Virus genome (UHGV): UHGV-0358463
Source of the DNA: a virus
DNA length: 35,359 nt
Strand: one strand, 5' to 3'
The translations under genes were made by a program, and so were the position numbers. The notes below the pieces were generated by a model, which was not told the origin of the DNA, ran no database searches, and worked only from the letters and a program-made list of their open reading frames with translations. Positions 205 through 20,251 of the stretch are shown here, in pieces. Each line of letters opens with the position of its first letter. Position 1 is the stretch's first letter.

Positions 205-1368
205 TTACACATCATTAGTACCTTCCTTATTTTTTGACTGGGACAAATTTGGGACCGATGGGTTCAGGATCGAGTCTATTTGCCGTGCGTGTTCGGTAAG
301 GTGATTAGGTGCAAGGTGAGCATATCGACGAACCATTTCGATAGACTCCCAGCCTCCCATTTCCTGTAACACTGACAACGGGACTCCGGCTTGAACCAGC
401 CAACTTGCCCAGGTGTGTCTCAAGTCGTGAAATCTGAAATCATCAATACCAGCCCGTCTCAGCGCCGCTTTCCAGGCTGTGTTTGCGTCATACCGCATCT
501 TCCTTACTGTTGGCGCTTTCGTTCCGTCTGGTTTGGTACAGCTTTCCTTGTACACAAATACCCAACGGTGATGATTCCCGATTTGTTTTTTCAATACGCG
601 ACATGCAGTATCATTCAGCGCAACGCCAATTGCGCGGTTTGATTTACTCTCTTCCGGGTTTATCCATGCCACCCGGCGCTGCATATCTATTTGTTGCCAT
701 TCAAGGTTGATGATGTTCGAGCGTCTTAAGCCTGTTGCCAGTGCAAATTCAACAACAGACTTTAATGGCTCCGGACATTCATCAATCAGCCTTTGTGCTT
801 CATGGGGCTCCAGCCAGCGGATCCGTTTATTCTTTGGTTGAGGCACTTTAATAATTGGTGCCTTATCCAGCATTTTCCATTCACGCTCTGCGGCTCTTAG
901 TAGGGCCTTTATAAATGAAAGATGCGTAGCCTTCGTTGCAACGGACGCTGGTTTTGGCGTGTATTCTGGAACAGGTTTCCCTTTTTTTCTGCATGCTTCT
1001 GCCCTGAGTTTCCAGTTTTCCTCATGACGCCGGTTCGTCATTTTCTGCATTGCTGAATAAATTTTTGATTCGGTAATGTCTCTTAGTTGCATTCCTGCGA
1101 AATGTTGAAGCCAGAATCCGATCCGGCTTTTGTCATCGTCCAGTGATTTTTTATGTGCTTTCTCTTCAAGCCACCTGACACACGCTTCCTCGAACGTTAT
1201 ATCAGGTATTTCACCAAGTTTGCTGACCCGCCATGCTTCAGCCTTTAGCTTGTCATGGAGTTCTGTCGCCTGCCTTTTGTCCTTTGTTCCAAGAGACTGT
1301 TTAAATCTTTTACCGTTCGGCAATGTGAAACTGGCGTACCATATTTCACCTCTGCGGAAGAGTGACAT
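205..1368 (-). CDS. int: tyrosine-type site-specific integrase (P22-like family)
   Basis: 387 aa. N-terminus [48 protein letters not shown] and C-terminal [10 protein letters not shown]...RRYAH catalytic region typical of phage tyrosine recombinases; sits next to the tRNA. Confidence 0.95.
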
Positions 1369-2262: not shown

Positions 2263-2789
2263 TTGCGTAACTCCGATAACTCGTTAAAGCGTTCCATAAA
2301 CATCCCGTAGGCATGGCCCGGTGCCAGTGGAATCACGTTGAACATCTCTGTTGCCGGGATACCTTCCAGTACAGGCCAGAAAGAGCCATCATCAAGCCCG
2401 AGATCGCGGCGTTCGGTTGCCAGCATGATGAGATCGGCATATTTCACGGGCGTACTCATAACTGGGGGTAACCCGTATTTCTCACGGATTACGGCGTCTA
2501 TTTTTTCTTCCATTTGTTTATAGTCAGGAAGAAGGCGTTTCAGTGGTGCGGGAATGTCCTGGCAATACGCTTCTGTTGCATCATGCATTAACGCTTCAAA
2601 AGCAAATTCCTGCGGCACCAACTGGCTGCAAAGAACCGCATGTTGGGCGACGCTGTAGAAGTGCGAAAGATGACCGGCAAAGCGACAGATATTTGAAAGG
2701 GAAACCGCGATATCGTTAATATCGATGTCGTCTTTATTTATCCTGTCATAATAAAAATGCTTCCCGGAAAAAGTTTTAATAAATGACAT
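2253..2789 (-). CDS. HD-domain phosphohydrolase (YfdR/YfbR-like 5'-deoxynucleotidase family)
   Basis: 178 aa from the ATG at 2789 with GGAG Shine-Dalgarno; HD-family-like region ...HFYSVAQHAVL...LMHDATEAY... . Confidence 0.75.
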   Translation of the reverse strand: MSFIKTFSGKHFYYDRINKDDIDINDIAVSLSNICRFAGHLSHFYSVAQHAVLCSQLVPQEFAFEALMHDATEAYCQDIPAPLKRLLPDYKQMEEKIDAVIREKYGLPPVMSTPVKYADLIMLATERRDLGLDDGSFWPVLEGIPATEMFNVIPLAPGHAYGMFMERFNELSELRKCA

Positions 2790-2916
2790 TTTGTTCTCCA
2801 CGTATATGCGCTGCACCGCGCTGAATTCTGGTAAAAAGAATCCCTCACCATCCGGCGATTATTGAGTAAATTACGTTTCCATAAATGCCCCCGCAGGGGC
2901 ATTTGCAGTAATGAAA

Positions 2917-3741
2917 TCAGGCGGTGAAAGTACCAATAAAGGTTTCTACTTTGCTGTCCTTGAATTTCTCAACAAGCAGATCACGAAATTCGTTAGCCAT
3001 TTCTTCCTGCACCGCCTCCAGCTGAATAATGCGCAGAACCAGTACAGGACGATCGCCAGTGATAATACTGAGGCGTAATTTAAACGGACGTTCTTTCAGA
3101 CCTTCAAACGGAACGCATTTAAATTCAAATGCCACTGGCATAATGTCTTTGGTCTTCGCTTCGACAGACTCCATCAGGGAGCGTTTGCCGCTGAAGTCAT
3201 TATCTTCAAAATCAGCGGTCTGGTTTGCTTCAATCGTGATTTTACGGACAGCCGCAGCCGCTTTTGTTGCCTGAATAGCGTCACCATTAGCATCAAAGCC
3301 CACAAGATAGTCGGCCCAGTCTTCAATCCATTCTGCCAGTGACTTCTGGGAGTTACGCTCGCCGTTAACAGACAACAGAGCAGAGAACGGTGCTGTCTTT
3401 TTCAGTTTGAGTGTGGCGGTGTTATCTGCGTGACCTGGTTCATCAATAGTACCCAGGTTAAGCACACTGACGGCACGCATATTATCAGCATCGATAAAGC
3501 AGCGGGTGCCTTCATCTGCAAGATCTTTAGAATAACGGGTAAAGTCATCGATGCTGGCAGCGGAAAGCGCACCACGGAAACGGAAGCGATTTAAATTAAA
3601 TTTTTCCAGATCATGAATGCGGAAATTCTCAGGCAATGCCACAGCATCGGCACCAATCTTACTGATAATTTCATTAACACCCTGAGCAGAAATAAGGGCA
3701 TGGATTTGATTAATTGCGGTTGCGTCTAAGTTCTGAGACAT
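2917..3741 (-). CDS. DUF2303-family prophage protein (YfdQ-like)
   Basis: 274 aa starting [21 protein letters not shown]; recognised from memory as the YfdQ family of cryptic prophage CPS-53. Confidence 0.75.
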
Positions 3742-4169: not shown

Positions 4170-4570
4170 TTTGCTGCTCCTCATCATATCGACCCTGCAA
4201 GGCCGATTAGTTTCTCCACAAAACAGAGAAGAACACCTGCGGTGGCAGCCGCCCGGATGGATTGGGTTATGAGCCCGTCGTCCGGTGATGCTCTTCTCTG
4301 TTTTGTAAAAAGGACGGTACCAGCCGGAAGCAAGGGTACAAACTGGTACCTCCAGGACTACACACAGCATAAAGTTGTGGTGCCGGGTGCCTCCCGGTGC
4401 CTGGCGAAGGTTGCACACCAGACGGGTGGGTATCCACAGAAGGTCGACTGTCAGCCTCAACCTTAACCCGCGTGCGCTGAGCCGCATTCACCACAACGCT
4501 AAGGATTCTCTCTGGTTAAAAATACTTAGCTGTTATGTGCCTGCTTTTAGCCACATCAGGCGAGGTGGAC

Positions 4571-4623
4571 CTGGTTATTCCCCAACAACAAGGATTCGGT
4601 TAATCTGGTTATCCCCAACAACG
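4571..4623 (+). repeat. two near-identical ~19-bp direct repeats (CTGGTTATTCCCCAACAACA / CTGGTTATCCCCAACAACG) just upstream of the RBS of the 4638 gene
   Basis: Read directly: copies at 4571-4590 and 4605-4623. Confidence 0.6.
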
Positions 4624-4637
4624 CAAAAGGAAAAGAA

Positions 4638-5072
4638 ATGTCCGGTAATATCTATACGCTGTACAAATCCCACTGTGAAAATGTTGGAAAGTATCGGGGC
4701 ATTGAAATCAGTGGGGTAGTGTCATCAGTCGAAATAAGCAAAGTTGAATCAAGGGCAACATTACTTACTCTTTTGGACCTTGTCTTACATGAGCACCGGA
4801 AGAAATTCGGCACTCCCTATAATCAGTTGAATGGGAAAAAGGCTCTGGTTCACCTTATTCTGATGAAGCATCACTGGATGCCAAAACAGATTAATGAGAT
4901 GAAATTTGATGAACTTCTTCTTTCAATTCAGGATGAACTCACACTTGATAAAATAAGCGTAACCGCCCAGAAATTTTTAGATTATCGAGACTGGAGATCA
5001 CAAATTCATCACTTTGATGATTTTGACGAAAATGAATGGGATCCTAATTTGTCTGCACAATATCTAAAGTAA
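4638..5072 (+). CDS. hypothetical protein, 144 aa
   Basis: ORF with AAGGA Shine-Dalgarno; transcribed against the surrounding leftward early genes; no family recognised. Confidence 0.55.
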   Translation: MSGNIYTLYKSHCENVGKYRGIEISGVVSSVEISKVESRATLLTLLDLVLHEHRKKFGTPYNQLNGKKALVHLILMKHHWMPKQINEMKFDELLLSIQDELTLDKISVTAQKFLDYRDWRSQIHHFDDFDENEWDPNLSAQYLK

Positions 5073-5250
5073 CATCCTGTGATAAAACCGTGATTTCCTG
5101 ATCCAGTTTTTTTAAGGAGTCTATTGTTTCCTGTCGATAAGACAGCACTTCACGAAGCTGGTTTATAGCTGCCAGCTTCTTTGTCATCCACTCATAAATT
5201 TCCTCATCTGTGTAGCCAGGCGCGACGATTTTGGGTTCTGTTTTGTGCAT
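5044..5250 (-). CDS. hypothetical small protein, 68 aa
   Basis: ATG at 5250 preceded by GAGGAG (7-nt spacing); 3' end overlaps the 4638-5072 gene by 29 nt on the opposite strand. Confidence 0.5.
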   Translation of the reverse strand: MHKTEPKIVAPGYTDEEIYEWMTKKLAAINQLREVLSYRQETIDSLKKLDQEITVLSQDVTLDIVQTN

Positions 5251-5309
5251 TTCACATCTCCTCAAGTTATCAGTTACTTGTTGATGGGGACCAGATTGTT
5301 AAAGAGCTA

Positions 5310-5332
5310 AGCGTCCTGTAGGGCGCTTTTTT
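5310..5332 (+). terminator. candidate intrinsic terminator (7-bp stem with one G-U pair, then TTTTTTGTT)
   Basis: AGCGTCC-tgta-GGGCGCT followed by a T-run. Confidence 0.4.
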
Positions 5333-5498
5333 GTTGCTAACGAATCATCCTGGACTTCATATGCCCCAGGCGGCTACTTCGTGGGCGTCCTGCCTGTTCG
5401 TTTTTGACATTTACTGACTGCTTACGACACATGCACCGTGTTGCAACCAGATTTTGTTGTAATCCTGTAGTTGGTCTGGAACAAAAGATAAAATTAAA

Positions 5499-5535
5499 TT
5501 GCGAGATATGCAAGTGATGTTTGCGAAATATGCAA
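5499..5535. promoter_or_regulatory. left operator/promoter region: two 15-bp sites TTGCGAGATATGCAA (5499-5513) and TTGCGAAATATGCAA (5521-5535); candidate leftward -35 TTGCAT (5507-5512) and -10 TATCTT (5485-5490)
   Basis: Same TTGCG-N6-GCAA motif as right of the repressor gene; the -35 hexamer lies inside a site. Confidence 0.45.
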
Positions 5536-5544
5536 ATTTATAGG

Positions 5545-5569
5545 TAATAAAAAGCCACCTTTCGGTGGC
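5545..5569 (-). terminator. intrinsic terminator downstream of the repressor gene
   Basis: On the minus strand GCCACC-GAAA-GGTGGC followed by TTTTTATT. Confidence 0.55.
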
Positions 5570-5589
5570 CGATGGATGGGATATTGAGG

Positions 5590-6282
5590 TTAATTATGTC
5601 TCTTAAGGGTTTGCGACTGACTGATTAAGACCTTTCCAAAGACCATGAATCGGTGTTCGTTTTCGCTAGTAATTCCCCATTCACGGTAAATCTGGTTATC
5701 AGAAATCACCAGCAGTTTGTCAGGAATCATTTGAAGTCTTTTAACGTATATTTTGTCATCAAAACCAAAGACATATATACCATCACCATCAAACTGATTG
5801 ATGCTGACATCAACGAAGATGAGATCTCCTGGCTCAATGGTTGGACACATACTGTCCCCACGAACGTTGATAACTTTGATGTGATTGGCTGGTCGTCCGC
5901 CGAACATTGATACAGCATTATCAGTTCTGTATTCGATGGCATGAATCACATCAATGACATCACCGCCCTGGATAAGGCCATTTCCCGCACTGGCACTGAT
6001 ATCCAGCATTTCAATACGGAACACATCCTTCACCTGCGCAACATCCTCATTATTACTGTTTTTATATACAGTATTACTTTTGTGGGCAGAGGTAAAGAGA
6101 TCAGCAATATCAACACCTAAGCTCTTGGCAATATTACTCAGTGTTTGTTCGGTAAATTGTTTTTGCTTACCCGTTTCTAAGCGCGAGATGTTCGCCGCAT
6201 CTACTCCTATTGCTTCAGCGAGATCGGCGATTTTCATGTTCTTCGCTTGGCGAAGTTGTCTGACTCGGTTTCCTATGTTCAT
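5590..6282 (-). CDS. cI-type prophage repressor (N-terminal XRE HTH, C-terminal S24 LexA-like peptidase)
   Basis: 230 aa; HTH region IADLAEAIGVDAANISRLETGK; S24 signature ...VRGDSMCPTIEPGDLIFVD...YVKRL... . Confidence 0.9.
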   Translation of the reverse strand: MNIGNRVRQLRQAKNMKIADLAEAIGVDAANISRLETGKQKQFTEQTLSNIAKSLGVDIADLFTSAHKSNTVYKNSNNEDVAQVKDVFRIEMLDISASAGNGLIQGGDVIDVIHAIEYRTDNAVSMFGGRPANHIKVINVRGDSMCPTIEPGDLIFVDVSINQFDGDGIYVFGFDDKIYVKRLQMIPDKLLVISDNQIYREWGITSENEHRFMVFGKVLISQSQTLKRHN

Positions 6283-6302: not shown

Positions 6303-6365
6303 TTGCGTGATAAGCAAATCAACTTGCGCAAAATAATTGCGTGAAATAACATGCATAACGCGCAA
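6303..6365. promoter_or_regulatory. right operator/divergent promoter region between repressor and cro-like genes: TTGCGTGATAAGCAA (6303-6317), palindrome TTGCGCAA (6324-6331), ATGCATAACGCGCAA (6351-6365)
   Basis: Repeated TTGCG/CGCAA half-sites in the 97-bp intergenic region. Confidence 0.5.
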
Positions 6366-6379
6366 TATTTGGAGGGCAT

Positions 6380-6640
6380 ATGCAATCACCATTACGAAAT
6401 GTGCGTAAGGCGCATGGTTTCACTTTGCAGCATGTTGCTGCGGGTGTTCAAGTCAATCCAGCGACGTTGAGTCGTATTGAGAGGCTGGAGCAGATTCCAT
6501 CTATCGAGCTTGCAGAACGTTTAGCCAATTTTTTTAAGGGTGAAGTCAGCGAAATGCAGATTCTTTATCCGGCACGTTTTCAATCTAGCCAAAACCAGAA
6601 TGGGTTTAAACCACAGGAACAGGAGGTGAACCGTGGGTAA
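6380..6640 (+). CDS. Cro-like HTH regulator (XRE family)
   Basis: 86 aa; HTH GFTLQHVAAGVQVNPATLSRIERLEQIPSIELAERLANFF; divergent from the repressor; GGAGGG Shine-Dalgarno. Confidence 0.8.
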   Translation: MQSPLRNVRKAHGFTLQHVAAGVQVNPATLSRIERLEQIPSIELAERLANFFKGEVSEMQILYPARFQSSQNQNGFKPQEQEVNRG

Positions 6641-18521: not shown

Positions 18522-20251
18522 GCCGGAAATCTTACCCCAACGTAAATGCTGCCAATCAGTATGCCCGTGATGTCGTGCGGGGAAAGATTGTGGCCTGCCA
18601 GTTTGTGATTCAGGCCTGCCAGCGCCATCTTGATGACCTGATGGCGGAAAAAAGTAAGTCGTTTCGTTACCGCTTCGACAAGGACCTGGCTGAACGGGCC
18701 GCCAAATTTATTCAGCTGTTGCCGCACACCAAGGGTGAGTGGGCATTTAAGAGGATGCCCATCACGCTGGAGCCGTGGCAGCTCTTTGTGATCTGCTGCG
18801 CGTTTGGCTGGGTCAATAAAGGCTCCCGGCTGCGCCGCTTCCGTGAGGTGTATACCGAAATCCCCCGTAAGAACGGCAAATCGGCAATCTCTGCCGGTGT
18901 CGCCCTGTATTGTTTTGCCTGTGATAACGAGTTTGGCGCGGAAGTGTATTCCGGTGCCACGACAGAGAAACAGGCGTGGGAAGTCTTTCGCCCGGCGCGA
19001 CTGATGTGTAAACGCACACCCATGCTGACGGAAGCGTTCGGGATTGAGGTTAACGCCTCAAACATGAACCGTCCGGAGGATGGCGCGCGGTTTGAACCGC
19101 TGATCGGTAACCCCGGTGATGGATCATCACCCCACTGTGCGGTGGTGGATGAATATCACGAGCACGCCACCGATGCGCTTTACACCACGATGCTTACCGG
19201 GATGGGGGCGCGACGTCAGCCACTGATGTGGGCCATTACTACTGCCGGGTACAACATTGAGGGGCCGTGCTACGACAAACGGCGGGAAGTTATCGAGATG
19301 CTCAACGGTTCGGTACCCAACGATGAACTGTTCGGGATCATCTATACCGTTGACGAAGGTGACGACTGGACCAACCCACAGGTGCTGGAAAAAGCCAACC
19401 CGAATATCGGGGTGTCGGTTTACCGTGAGTTTTTGTTAAGTCAGCAACAGCGTGCGAAAAATAACGCCCGTCTGGCAAACGTCTTTAAAACAAAACACCT
19501 CAATATCTGGGTGTCGGCGCGTTCGGCGTATTTCAACCTGGTGAGCTGGCAGAGCTGCGAGGATAAATCACTGACTCTTGAGCAATTCGAGGGGCAGCCG
19601 TGCATTCTGGCCTTTGACCTGGCGCGTAAACTGGATATGAACAGCATGGCGCGACTTTATACCCGCGAGATTGACGGTAAAACGCATTACTACAGTGTGG
19701 CCCCGCGTTTCTGGGTACCGTATGACACGGTGTACAGCGTCGAGAAAAATGAAGATCGCCGGACAGCCGAACGCTTTCAGAAATGGGTGGAAATGGGCGT
19801 CCTGACCGTTACCGATGGTGCAGAGGTGGATTATCGCTACATCCTCGAAGAGGCCAAAGCGGCGAACAAAATCAGCCCGGTCAGCGAGTCACCCATCGAC
19901 CCCTTCGGGGCGACCGGGCTGTCACATGACCTTGCTGATGAAGACCTGAATCCCGTCACTATCTTCCAGAACTTCACCAATATGTCCGATCCGATGAAAG
20001 AGCTGGAAGCAGCGATTGAATCGGGACGTTTTCATCATGACGGCAATCCCATCATGACCTGGTGTATCGGCAACGTGGTCGGCAAAAACATGCCGGGTAA
20101 CGATGATGTGGTGAAACCCGTCAAAGAGCAGGCGGAAAACAAAATTGACGGTGCAGTTGCGCTGATTATGGCGGTTGGCAGAGCCATGCTGTACGAGAAA
20201 GAAGACACGCTGTCTGATCACATTGAGTCCTACGGGATCCGCTCGCTTTAA
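18518..20251 (+). CDS. terminase large subunit
   Basis: 577 aa; Walker-A-like PRKNGKS, ATPase and nuclease halves; ATGA overlap with the small subunit. Confidence 0.9.

What the first reader, a model, noticed from the sequence alone, without database searches (positions are those of the whole stretch)
4638..5250. Convergent small gene pair with overlapping 3' ends beside the immunity region
A 144-aa plus-strand gene and a 68-aa minus-strand gene overlap by 29 nt at their 3' ends, so their transcripts are antisense to each other. The plus-strand gene opposes the leftward early transcription expected here. The neighbourhood of phage repressor genes often carries exclusion or toxin-antitoxin-like accessory genes.
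Basis: inference. Interest (0 to 1): 0.4.

Follow-up and report, generated by a model that had tools for sequence, protein, structure and literature searches.

The report
Conserved convergent two-gene prophage cassette
Two small genes that face each other and overlap at their ends, next to a prophage repressor gene, belong to a conserved mobile two-gene cassette of unknown function found in many temperate phages of enteric bacteria; it is probably an accessory switch that is on in the dormant prophage and shut off during lytic growth.

Summary
A 144-aa gene (4638-5072, +) and a 68-aa gene (5044-5250, -) converge and overlap by 29 nt, just left of a cI/cro immunity region in an SfIV/SfV-like E. 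coli prophage.

Both genes are real. The first belongs to the 'ECs1072 family' (NF033230, 157.8 bits). The second is about 40% identical to YdfC of the Qin prophage.

The new result is that the pair is a unit. In 11 of 15 ECs1072 lineages the YdfC-like gene lies convergent and overlapping (29-110 nt). The two proteins co-diverge (Spearman 0.94). The module sits in different accessory slots (cI-proximal, Q-to-lysis, integrase-adjacent) with the same geometry: the partner runs with the lytic operon and ECs1072 runs against it. A conserved leader and a conserved + strand terminator travel with the module.

ECs1072 folds confidently (pLDDT 94.7) into an all-helical domain with no recognisable structural relative. 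The partner is essentially one long helix.

Neither protein matches known toxin-antitoxin or defence families, and each also occurs alone, so a classical TA pair is unlikely.

My best guess is a lysogen-phase accessory effector with an antisense-coupled lytic-phase antagonist. That mechanism is inferred, not shown. Interest is moderate.

The parts
4569..5338 (.). Replaceable cassette (accessory slot) between the conserved non-coding block left of it and the conserved 67-nt linker right of it
   Evidence: blastn breakpoints against SfII, SfV, mEp460 (4568 / 5339-5341) and PhiR29 (4622 / 5291); sister phages carry unrelated cargo here
4564..4637 (+). Conserved leader of the ECs1072 gene. It holds two direct copies of CTGGTTAT(T)CCCCAACAAC (4571 and 4605, 34 nt apart), then the AGGA ribosome-binding site
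   Evidence: Repeats (D1, D2). About 60 nt are near-identical upstream of homologs only 52-56% identical in protein and with unrelated farther flanks (L010, L008), and they are kept in PhiR29 in front of a different gene. No consensus sigma-70 promoter was found
4638..5072 (+). ECs1072-family gene, 144 aa; predicted all-alpha domain (8 helices)
5044..5250 (-). YdfC-like partner gene, 68 aa (short form); disordered N-terminal motif EPKIVAPGYTDEEIYEW followed by one long helix
   Evidence: phrog_1744 6e-35; about 40% identity to YdfC; aligns with the partners of distant ECs1072 homologs; profile search finds 232 clusters across Enterobacterales; AlphaFold2 pLDDT 85.5, helix 15-59; 10 synonymous to 13 nonsynonymous polymorphisms
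5044..5072 (.). 29-nt overlap of the two coding regions. The partner's TAG stop (5046-5044) sits where long-form partners have the TGG of the dual-coded palindrome TGGGATCCCA
5154..5179 (+). Weak terminator-like hairpin for the + transcript, inside the partner gene
   Evidence: Long-form modules have a + terminator 35-45 nt past the ECs1072 stop, inside the partner gene
5278..5297 (-). Inverted copy of the leader motif (AATCTGGTCCCCATCAACAA on the - strand), upstream of the partner's ribosome-binding site
   Evidence: I3, I5; present in the window and L009 only
5309..5328 (+). Intrinsic terminator for + strand transcription (AAGCGTCCTGTAGGGCGCTT followed by TTTTTGTT), placed just beyond the partner's start codon
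   Evidence: The sequence is conserved with the module in L009, L010 and L099 and shared with PhiR29
5339..5405 (.). 67-nt linker conserved in all SfV-like relatives, between the variable slot and the immunity module
   Evidence: 97% in SfV, 87-88% in mEp460 and ST64B
5499..5535 (-). Two operator-like sites, TTGCGA(G/A)ATATGCAA: the putative O_L/P_L region that sends early transcription leftward into the cassette
   Evidence: (D9). Related sites lie at 6303 and 6351 between cI and cro. L099 and L101 have 10/12 promoters at the equivalent place
5553..5570 (-). Terminator of the cI-like repressor gene
   Evidence: annotated in SfII

Best explanation
The two ORFs are real genes. Together they form a conserved, mobile, two-gene accessory cassette (a 'moron'-type insert) of temperate Enterobacterales phages.

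The 144-aa ECs1072-family gene carries its own conserved leader and its own terminator. It always points against the adjoining lytic operon. The 68-aa YdfC-like gene always runs with that operon, on its promoter-proximal side.

Proposed working (inferred):
1. In the lysogen, cI keeps P_L off. The ECs1072 gene is transcribed across the partner gene to the terminator at 5309-5328. This yields ECs1072 protein and an RNA antisense to the partner.
2. After induction or on infection, leftward early transcription produces the partner. It then runs antisense through the ECs1072 gene and silences it.
3. The single-helix partner protein binds and antagonises ECs1072 protein.

On this reading ECs1072 is a lysogen-phase accessory effector, most plausibly of the exclusion or defence kind. 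The partner is the phage's own lytic-phase antagonist.

Confidence by step:
- real genes and a true module: about 0.9
- accessory rather than core: about 0.8
- reciprocal, antisense-coupled expression: about 0.45
- protein-protein antagonism: about 0.3
- anti-phage role: about 0.25
For: Shown:
- Family membership of both proteins.
- The cassette is replaceable, with sharp breakpoints.
- 11 of 15 ECs1072 lineages have a convergent, 3'-overlapping YdfC-like partner, with overlaps of 29-110 nt.
- Pairwise identities of the two proteins co-vary (Spearman 0.935 over 703 non-independent pairs).
- The module occurs in the cI-proximal slot (window, L009, L099, L101), in the Q-to-lysis slot (ST64B, Klebsiella KPP5665-2, Serratia, L103, L104, L128, L164, L239) and beside an integrase (L010). 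In all of these the partner is co-directional with the flanking lytic genes.
- Long forms share a palindrome, TGGGATCCCA, that codes W-D-P in both proteins.
- The leader and the + terminator are conserved with the module at 44-56% protein identity.
- O_L-like operators and, in L099 and L101, strong leftward promoters lie just upstream of the partner.
- In the Q-to-lysis slot, minus-strand terminators lie between Q and the partner in three lineages. Partner expression there would need antitermination.
- Neighbours include a PADLOC PDC-S20 KAP NTPase (578.8 bits) and a PemK/MazF toxin, so these are accessory or defence hotspots.
- The partner is predicted as one long helix, a binder-like shape.
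- The Sakai namesake gene gave a signal in uninduced cultures on microarrays (PMC2241611).

Functional analogy: phage Fc02 has antiparallel overlapping genes beside its repressor, one lysogenic and one lytic, both with exclusion activity (PMC9936078).
Against: - There is no expression, interaction or phenotype data for either gene.
- No consensus sigma-70 promoter was found upstream of the ECs1072 gene.
- There is no match to any PADLOC defence model.
- The ECs1072 fold has no informative relative.
- ECs1072 homologs occur without a partner: in chromosomal, non-prophage contexts beside aldehyde dehydrogenase or a PMT_2 glycosyltransferase, in L008, and with truncated partners in five Klebsiella-type loci. 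ECs1072 therefore needs no antidote.
- YdfC occurs without ECs1072 in Qin, PPompW and Evi, so the partner has some role of its own.
- In ST64B a promoter directly after Q, with no intervening terminator, could express the partner constitutively. That would not fit strict reciprocity.
- A complex prediction could not be run.
Confidence: 0.35

Rival explanations
1. The genes are independent and their adjacency is incidental. The 68-aa gene is simply an ordinary first gene of the early-left operon (YdfC family). The ECs1072 gene is an unrelated moron that landed next to it. The 29-nt overlap has no function.
For: YdfC occurs alone as a promoter-proximal gene of the DicA-repressed dicBF operon and in PPompW and Evi phages (PMC5069750). 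ECs1072 homologs occur alone. In the window the overlap is short and the partner stops before the dual-coded palindrome. In E. coli the near-equal gene counts (416 vs 411 genomes) only reflect one 99%-identical cassette.
Against: The same convergent, overlapping geometry holds in 11 of 15 lineages and in three different genomic slots, across E. coli, Salmonella, Klebsiella and Serratia. The two proteins co-diverge strongly. The palindromic dual coding is conserved. The leader and terminator flank both genes together.
Confidence: 0.2
2. The module is mainly an RNA-level regulatory device. Convergent transcription from the ECs1072 side opposes leaky lytic transcription (P_L here, the late promoter elsewhere) and helps set the lysis-lysogeny balance. 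This would be in the manner of lambda oop and P_aQ or P22 sar. The protein products would be secondary.
For: The ECs1072 gene always faces a lytic promoter (P_L, the late promoter, or P_R in Sakai Sp4). The + terminator is placed so that the whole partner gene is covered in antisense. The non-coding leader is more conserved than the coding sequence. The comparison with oop, P_aQ and sar rests on established knowledge of those phages.
Against: Both proteins are conserved as proteins at low DNA identity. ECs1072 gives a very confident fold and has near-invariant residues (L50, R54, L64, G66, A69, H72, W134). The cassette is dispensable, since sister phages with the same immunity and early genes lack it. 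Chromosomal orphans keep the ECs1072 protein with no lytic operon to oppose.
Confidence: 0.2
3. The pair is a classical toxin-antitoxin (addiction or abortive-infection) pair. One protein is toxic and the other neutralises it stoichiometrically.
For: These are two small adjacent genes in a slot where TA genes do occur. Examples are the RelE/ParE-type 'plasmid stabilization' gene next to the repressor in Sakai Sp4 and PemK in L103. The partner has an antitoxin-like single-helix shape.
Against: The genes are convergent, not co-transcribed. There is no similarity to any toxin or antitoxin family in Pfam, NCBIfam or PADLOC. ECs1072 is intact without a partner in three lineages and with truncated partners in five loci. 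The partner family is widespread without ECs1072.
Confidence: 0.1
4. The 68-aa ORF is not a gene. It would be a chance ORF on the antisense strand of the 3' untranslated region of the ECs1072 transcript.
For: SfIV's depositors did not annotate it. It lies wholly inside the probable + transcript.
Against: It matches phrog_1744 at 6e-35 and is homologous to YdfC. A profile search finds 232 clusters across Enterobacterales. It has a strong GAGGAG ribosome-binding site. There is an excess of synonymous change. The helix prediction is confident.
Confidence: 0.03

Closest known systems
Lambdoid-phage morons (accessory genes with their own promoter and terminator, such as lambda bor/lom; defined in comparative work on HK97/HK022 - from established knowledge)
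   Same: The cassette is present or absent between otherwise near-identical flanks. It carries its own terminator. It is oriented independently of the surrounding operon. It sits in classical hotspots, next to cI and between Q and the lysis genes.
   Different: Here the unit is two convergent, overlapping genes that travel together, one of them aligned with the lytic operon. No promoter could be identified, and no lysogen phenotype is known.
Pseudomonas phage Fc02 olg1 / gene 10 (PMC9936078)
   Same: These are antiparallel overlapping small genes beside the repressor. One is on the lysogenic strand and one is in the lytic operon, and both affect superinfection exclusion.
   Different: No sequence relationship was tested or is expected. 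Fc02 is a Mu-like beetrevirus, and its overlap geometry and gene sizes differ. Exclusion activity is shown for Fc02 but not for this pair.
YdfC of the Qin prophage dicBF operon (E. coli K-12)
   Same: The 68-aa protein is a homolog (about 40% identity, E 2e-9). Both are small, promoter-proximal genes of a repressor-controlled early operon, and both are of unknown function (PMC5069750).
   Different: Qin, PPompW and Evi have no ECs1072-family gene opposite ydfC. In Qin, ydfC is followed by dicF and dicB.
Prophage defence with self-immunity (for example P22 sieB/esc, BstA/aba - from established knowledge, not tested here)
   Same: The proposed logic is the same: an effector made by the prophage plus a device that spares the phage's own lytic cycle. 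The location is also near the immunity region.
   Different: There is no homology. The antagonist here would be a separate convergent gene plus antisense transcription. The function is not demonstrated.
Antisense regulators of lambdoid phages (lambda oop, P_aQ; P22 sar - from established knowledge)
   Same: Transcription is directed against a lytic transcript from within or beside the lytic operon.
   Different: Those are short non-coding RNAs. Here the opposing transcript encodes a conserved 144-aa folded protein.

Membership tests
ECs1072 family phage-associated protein (NCBIfam NF033230) | Whole-protein score above the curated cut-off (70 bits), with full-length coverage of the 142-position model | tested here: met
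   157.8 bits, residues 4-144 on profile positions 2-142; PGAP gives the same name to the 100%-identical WP_000016389.1
ECs1072 family phage-associated protein (NCBIfam NF033230) | Stand-alone protein of about 145-155 aa with the conserved LE..L..HR / L.G..AL.H / EW.P motifs | tested here: met
   Alignment A2 of 47 members: W134 invariant; L50, R54, L64, G66, A69 and H72 at 90% or more
YdfC family / phrog_1744 | Significant full-length sequence similarity to YdfC-type proteins | tested here: met
   phrog_1744 6e-35 over 1-68 of 68; tblastn to annotated ydfC genes at 39-41% identity, E 2e-9; aligns with K-12 YdfC in A6
YdfC family / phrog_1744 | Promoter-proximal small gene of a repressor-controlled early operon | tested here: inconclusive
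   The geometry fits: it is the first ORF left of the O_L-like operators and co-directional with the early-left genes. However, no promoter reached the scan threshold, and a hairpin lies between P_L and the gene
Type II toxin-antitoxin system | Two co-transcribed genes in one operon | tested here: not met
   The genes are convergent on opposite strands
Type II toxin-antitoxin system | Similarity of either protein to a known toxin or antitoxin family | tested here: not met
   No Pfam, NCBIfam or PADLOC match beyond NF033230; no PDB sequence match for ECs1072
Type II toxin-antitoxin system | Obligate co-occurrence of the two partners | tested here: not met
   Three ECs1072 lineages lack a partner, five loci have a truncated partner, and YdfC occurs alone in Qin, PPompW and Evi
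Type II toxin-antitoxin system | Growth inhibition by one protein, relieved by the other | not testable with these tools
   Needs expression experiments
Known anti-phage defence systems (PADLOC-DB v2) | Match to a defence-protein model | tested here: not met
   0 families for either protein at E up to 1
Moron (independently transcribed accessory insert of lambdoid phages) | Present or absent between conserved flanks in related phages | tested here: met
   Breakpoints at 4568/4622 and 5291/5339; other cargo in SfII, SfV, mEp460 and PhiR29
Moron (independently transcribed accessory insert of lambdoid phages) | Own terminator | tested here: met
   + strand terminator at 5309-5328, conserved with the module
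Moron (independently transcribed accessory insert of lambdoid phages) | Own promoter, active in the lysogen | tested here: inconclusive
   No consensus sigma-70 site upstream, although a conserved 60-nt leader is present. The only expression hint is a microarray signal for the distant Sakai homolog
HD / HD-GYP / HDOD helical domains (best structural matches) | Clear fold match and the H..HD..D metal-binding motif | tested here: not met

The most novel reading that the evidence does not exclude
The ECs1072/YdfC-like pair is a previously unrecognised two-component prophage system. It would consist of a lysogen-expressed effector with a new helical fold and a convergently encoded, antisense-coupled single-helix antagonist. 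In its long form, the 3' ends are dual-coded around a conserved palindrome. The system would provide exclusion or defence with built-in self-immunity, or would control the lysis-lysogeny decision. It moves as a unit between the classical accessory hotspots of temperate Enterobacterales phages.
Probability: 0.3. Interest if true: 0.7.

Novelty: new variant of a known kind. Interest (0 to 1): 0.5.

Why it matters
Both genes are common: about 8% of complete E. coli genomes carry this allele, and relatives occur in Salmonella ST64B, Klebsiella, Serratia, Citrobacter and Xenorhabdus prophages. Both are annotated only as 'hypothetical'. In several reference phages the ECs1072-family gene is not annotated at all.

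Recognising the two genes as one conserved, mobile, antisense-coupled module in the same hotspots that hold known defence and toxin genes turns two anonymous ORFs into a testable candidate accessory system. It is also a clean natural example of conserved antiparallel gene overlap.

If the effector/antagonist model holds, it would add a new protein fold and a new regulatory layout to prophage-encoded host protection. If it fails, the pair is still a useful marker of accessory slots.

Tried and rejected
1. Sequence searches of both proteins against Pfam, PADLOC and PDB gave nothing informative. The weak CheZ, NICE-3 and coiled-coil matches of the 68-aa protein are low-complexity helix noise.
5. 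The search for related loci with the broad alignments A2 and A3 failed for lack of a conserved stretch. P0100 gave no loci.
6. The codon-position test for ECs1072 is unusable, because the 80 viral loci were selected for 100% protein identity.
7. Literature: 'sb50' hits were strain names. WP_000016389 gave no hits. The SfIV paper does not discuss orf36. The YdfC papers give no function.
8. Sakai Sp4: the convergent ORF opposite ECs1072 aligns to the partner motif only weakly (hhalign E 0.003, probability 10%), so it is left as inconclusive.
9. The genes downstream of ydfC in PPompW are not cryptic ECs1072 relatives.
10. The early-left leader RNA shows no significant structure (z 0.07), and there is no Rfam family in the cassette.

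Full report
**1. The observation**

The window carries an ATG ORF at 4638-5072 on the + strand (144 aa). On the - strand an ORF ends at 5044. It is 68 aa from the ATG at 5250, which has a GAGGAG ribosome-binding site 7 nt upstream, or 73 aa from the TTG at 5265.

NCBI's pipeline annotates the same two CDS in E. coli chromosomes that are 99.8% identical over 4400-5600.

The setting is an SfIV/SfV-like lambdoid prophage:
- integrase at 205-1368 (-)
- the yfdT/R/Q/P early-left genes (-)
- a cI-like S24 repressor at 5590-6282 (-)
- cro at 6380-6640 (+)

The motif TTGC-N7-GCAA occurs exactly three times in 35 kb: at 5499 and 5521, just left of the cI terminator, and at 6303 between cI and cro. With up to three mismatches to the fuller 15-nt consensus TTGCGARATATGCAA, a further site appears at 6351 and only one elsewhere in the window. 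That is the pattern expected of O_L and O_R. Early transcription is therefore expected to run leftward into the pair from about 5490.

**2. Both ORFs are genes**

The 144-aa protein scores 157.8 bits on NCBIfam NF033230, 'ECs1072 family phage-associated protein' (cut-off 70). It scores 1.5e-90 on phrog_5286.

An exhaustive HMMER search with a four-member profile found 76 cluster representatives, nearly all 145-155 aa. In an alignment of 47 of them, W134 is invariant and L50, R54, L64, G66, A69 and H72 are nearly so.

The 68-aa protein scores 6e-35 on phrog_1744. It is 39-41% identical to genes annotated ydfC in Qin-like and PPompW prophages. A profile of short and long forms retrieves 232 clusters across Enterobacterales, all 'hypothetical'. 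Among 46 alleles of the cassette, the partner shows 10 synonymous and 13 nonsynonymous changes, a modest excess of silent change.

Neither protein matches Pfam, PADLOC or any solved structure by sequence.

**3. The region is a replaceable slot**

SfII, SfV and mEp460 match the window up to 4568 and again from 5339-5341. PhiR29 matches up to 4622 and from 5291. Between those points they carry other cargo:
- SfV orf33
- an HTH_17 protein in mEp460
- a 63-aa gene in SfII
- a different + strand gene in PhiR29

A 67-nt linker (5339-5405) is conserved in all of them, and at 88% even in Salmonella phage ST64B.

**4. The pair is a conserved module (the main new result)**

Divergent ECs1072 homologs keep a convergent, overlapping partner:
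- E. albertii (72% identity), though the partner's C-terminus is frameshifted there
- a metagenomic contig where the module lies beside an integrase (52% identity; 44-nt overlap)
- ST64B, Klebsiella phage KPP5665-2 and Serratia quinivorans, where the module lies in the Q-to-lysis region

In ST64B and the Klebsiella phage, a full-length ECs1072-family ORF that the depositors did not annotate faces the annotated small genes Sb50 and GP45; in Serratia (an unannotated genome record) a convergent small ORF lies in the same position. The N-termini of those small genes (…PYFFNPGMTxEQLEDWL…NQL) align with the window's 68-aa protein (…PKIVAPGYTDEEIYEWM…NQL).

I fetched about 240 loci and scanned six-frame ORFs with HMMs of both families. 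This gave 60 distinct full-length ECs1072-family proteins in 15 clusters at 60% identity:
- 11 clusters have the convergent partner, with overlaps of 29-110 nt
- 3 clusters lack it
- 1 contig is too short to tell

Pairwise identities of the two proteins co-vary (Spearman 0.935; 703 non-independent pairs).

In the long forms, a 10-bp palindrome, TGGGATCCCA, encodes W-D-P in both proteins (…EDWDPKENS… and …SFPWDPSPL…). In the window, the partner's TAG stop lies exactly where the long forms have that TGG. The window therefore carries a short form, like L010, L099 and Qin YdfC.

**5. The geometry is constant**

The module occupies these slots:
- the cI-proximal slot: window, L009, L099, L101
- the Q-to-lysis slot: ST64B, Klebsiella, Serratia, L103, L104, L128, L164, L239
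- beside an integrase: L010

In every case the partner is co-directional with the flanking lytic genes and lies on the promoter side, while the ECs1072 gene points against them.

L008 is also in the cI-proximal slot, but it carries ECs1072 alone with no partner.

The family's namesake in O157 Sakai prophage Sp4 (now ECs_5703) lies antiparallel inside the rightward early operon, between a cII-like gene and gene O. Its convergent ORF resembles the partner only weakly (hhalign E 0.003, probability 10%), so that case is inconclusive.

**6. Cis elements travel with the module**

About 60 nt upstream of the ECs1072 start codon contain two direct copies of CTGGTTAT(T)CCCCAACAAC. This stretch is near-identical in L010 and L008, whose proteins are only 52-56% identical and whose farther flanks are unrelated. 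PhiR29 keeps it in front of a different gene. An inverted copy lies upstream of the partner in the window and in L009.

The + strand terminator at 5309-5328 (AAGCGTCC…GGGCGCTT followed by a T run) lies about 59 nt beyond the partner's start codon. It is conserved in L009, L010 and L099. A + transcript ending there would cover the whole partner gene in antisense.

Long-form modules instead have a + terminator 35-45 nt past the ECs1072 stop codon, inside the partner gene. The window has a weaker hairpin at 5154-5179.

L099 and L101 have 10/12 leftward promoters between the cI terminator and the partner.

In the Q-to-lysis slot, minus-strand terminators lie between Q and the partner in the Klebsiella phage, L103 and L164. 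Partner expression there would need antitermination. ST64B is less clear.

No consensus sigma-70 promoter was found upstream of the ECs1072 gene, so its transcription in the lysogen is inferred, not shown. The only expression hint is a microarray signal for Sakai ECs1072 in uninduced cultures (PMC2241611).

**7. Structures**

The partner is predicted as a disordered 14-residue N-terminus followed by one long helix (residues 15-59; pLDDT 85.5). That shape suits a coiled coil or a binding peptide, not an enzyme or a helix-turn-helix.

**8. Limits on a TA reading**

The ECs1072 family occurs without any partner in two clusters of chromosomal contigs up to 1.7 Mb long, next to an aldehyde dehydrogenase or a PMT_2 glycosyltransferase. 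It also occurs alone in L008. Five Klebsiella-type loci have a truncated partner beside an intact ECs1072 gene.

YdfC occurs without ECs1072 in Qin, PPompW and Evi. The genes downstream of it there are unrelated.

Together with the convergent layout and the lack of homology, this argues against a classical toxin-antitoxin pair.

On the other side, the module's neighbours include a KAP NTPase that matches PADLOC candidate PDC-S20 at 578.8 bits and a PemK/MazF toxin. The slots it uses are therefore accessory or defence hotspots.

**9. Interpretation**

What is shown:
- two real genes
- a conserved mobile module with fixed geometry and its own leader and terminator
- an accessory, dispensable status
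- a fold without known relatives

What is inferred: reciprocal expression (ECs1072 in the lysogen; the partner plus antisense read-through in lytic growth), and antagonism of ECs1072 by the helical partner. The closest functional analogy in the literature is phage Fc02. There, antiparallel overlapping genes beside the repressor, one lysogenic and one lytic, both confer exclusion (PMC9936078).

Rivals are that the adjacency is incidental, that the device works mainly at the RNA level, that it is a TA pair, or that the 68-aa ORF is spurious. They are weighed in the structured fields.

I found no publication that describes the pairing. YdfC is repeatedly called a small protein of unknown function (PMC5069750), and the SfIV paper does not discuss orf36.

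**10. Verdict**

Novelty: a new variant of a known kind, that is, a moron-type accessory cassette built as a convergent, overlapping, co-evolving gene pair.

Interest is 0.5.

Noticed in passing
window 4305-4527 (-), within 4193-4568: There is a sub-threshold Rfam match to the Salmonella sRNA family STnc100 (38.4 bits, gathering score 47, E 4e-6). It lies in a non-coding block conserved in SfII, SfV and mEp460 and at 77% in ST64B. PGAP calls a 'frameshifted hypothetical protein' there. It may be a conserved prophage sRNA or a leader upstream of yfdP.
   Followed up: partly
window 5339-5405: A 67-nt linker is conserved in every SfV-like relative (97% in SfV, 87-88% in mEp460 and ST64B), between the variable cargo slot and the immunity module. 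It may be a recombination boundary or a functional element downstream of P_L. As RNA it shows no significant fold.
   Followed up: partly
L094 (ST64B) 2845-3279 (+); L095 (Klebsiella phage KPP5665-2) 2818-3291 (+): Full-length ECs1072-family ORFs are not annotated in these reference phage records. Only the opposite-strand partners (Sb50, GP45) are, and the Sb50 start looks over-extended.
   Followed up: yes
long-form modules, e.g. L094 about 3240-3260, L095, L013: A 10-bp palindrome, TGGGATCCCA, encodes W-D-P on both strands. It contains a GATC Dam site and a BamHI site. It is unclear whether it is kept only by the dual-coding constraint or is also a DNA-level site.
   Followed up: partly
window 4571-4621 and 5278-5297: The motif CTGGTTAT(T)CCCCAACAAC occurs in three copies: two direct copies 34 nt apart upstream of the ECs1072 gene and one inverted copy upstream of the partner. 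The leader is more conserved than the coding sequence. No regulator, promoter or RNA family could be assigned.
   Followed up: partly
L097 (PPompW_EH2246) 2742-3149 (+) / 3127-3360 (-); same in L098 (phage Evi): Another convergent small-gene pair with a 23-nt overlap lies directly downstream of ydfC. It is unrelated to ECs1072 by hhalign and has no Pfam or PADLOC match.
   Followed up: partly
L138, L144 and relatives (metagenomic contigs up to 1.7 Mb): ECs1072-family genes occur without a partner in chromosomal, apparently non-prophage contexts, beside an aldehyde dehydrogenase or a PMT_2 glycosyltransferase. This may be a domesticated branch of the family.
   Followed up: partly
L129 3799-5133 (+); L103 4102-4503 (-): The module's immediate neighbours include a KAP-family P-loop NTPase matching PADLOC candidate PDC-S20 (578.8 bits) and a PemK/MazF toxin. 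This marks the Q-to-lysis slot as a defence or toxin hotspot.
   Followed up: partly
window 4375-4719 (+): A 114-aa TTG ORF (annotated as SfIV_35 in phage SfIV) overlaps the conserved leader and the start of the ECs1072 gene. It is probably a spurious call.
   Followed up: no
L247 (O157 Sakai Sp4) 19117-19677 (+) vs 19361-19816 (-): The family's namesake gene lies antiparallel inside the rightward early operon. It overlaps by more than 300 nt with an unannotated ORF whose N-terminus weakly resembles the partner motif (SDVELAEWL).
   Followed up: partly
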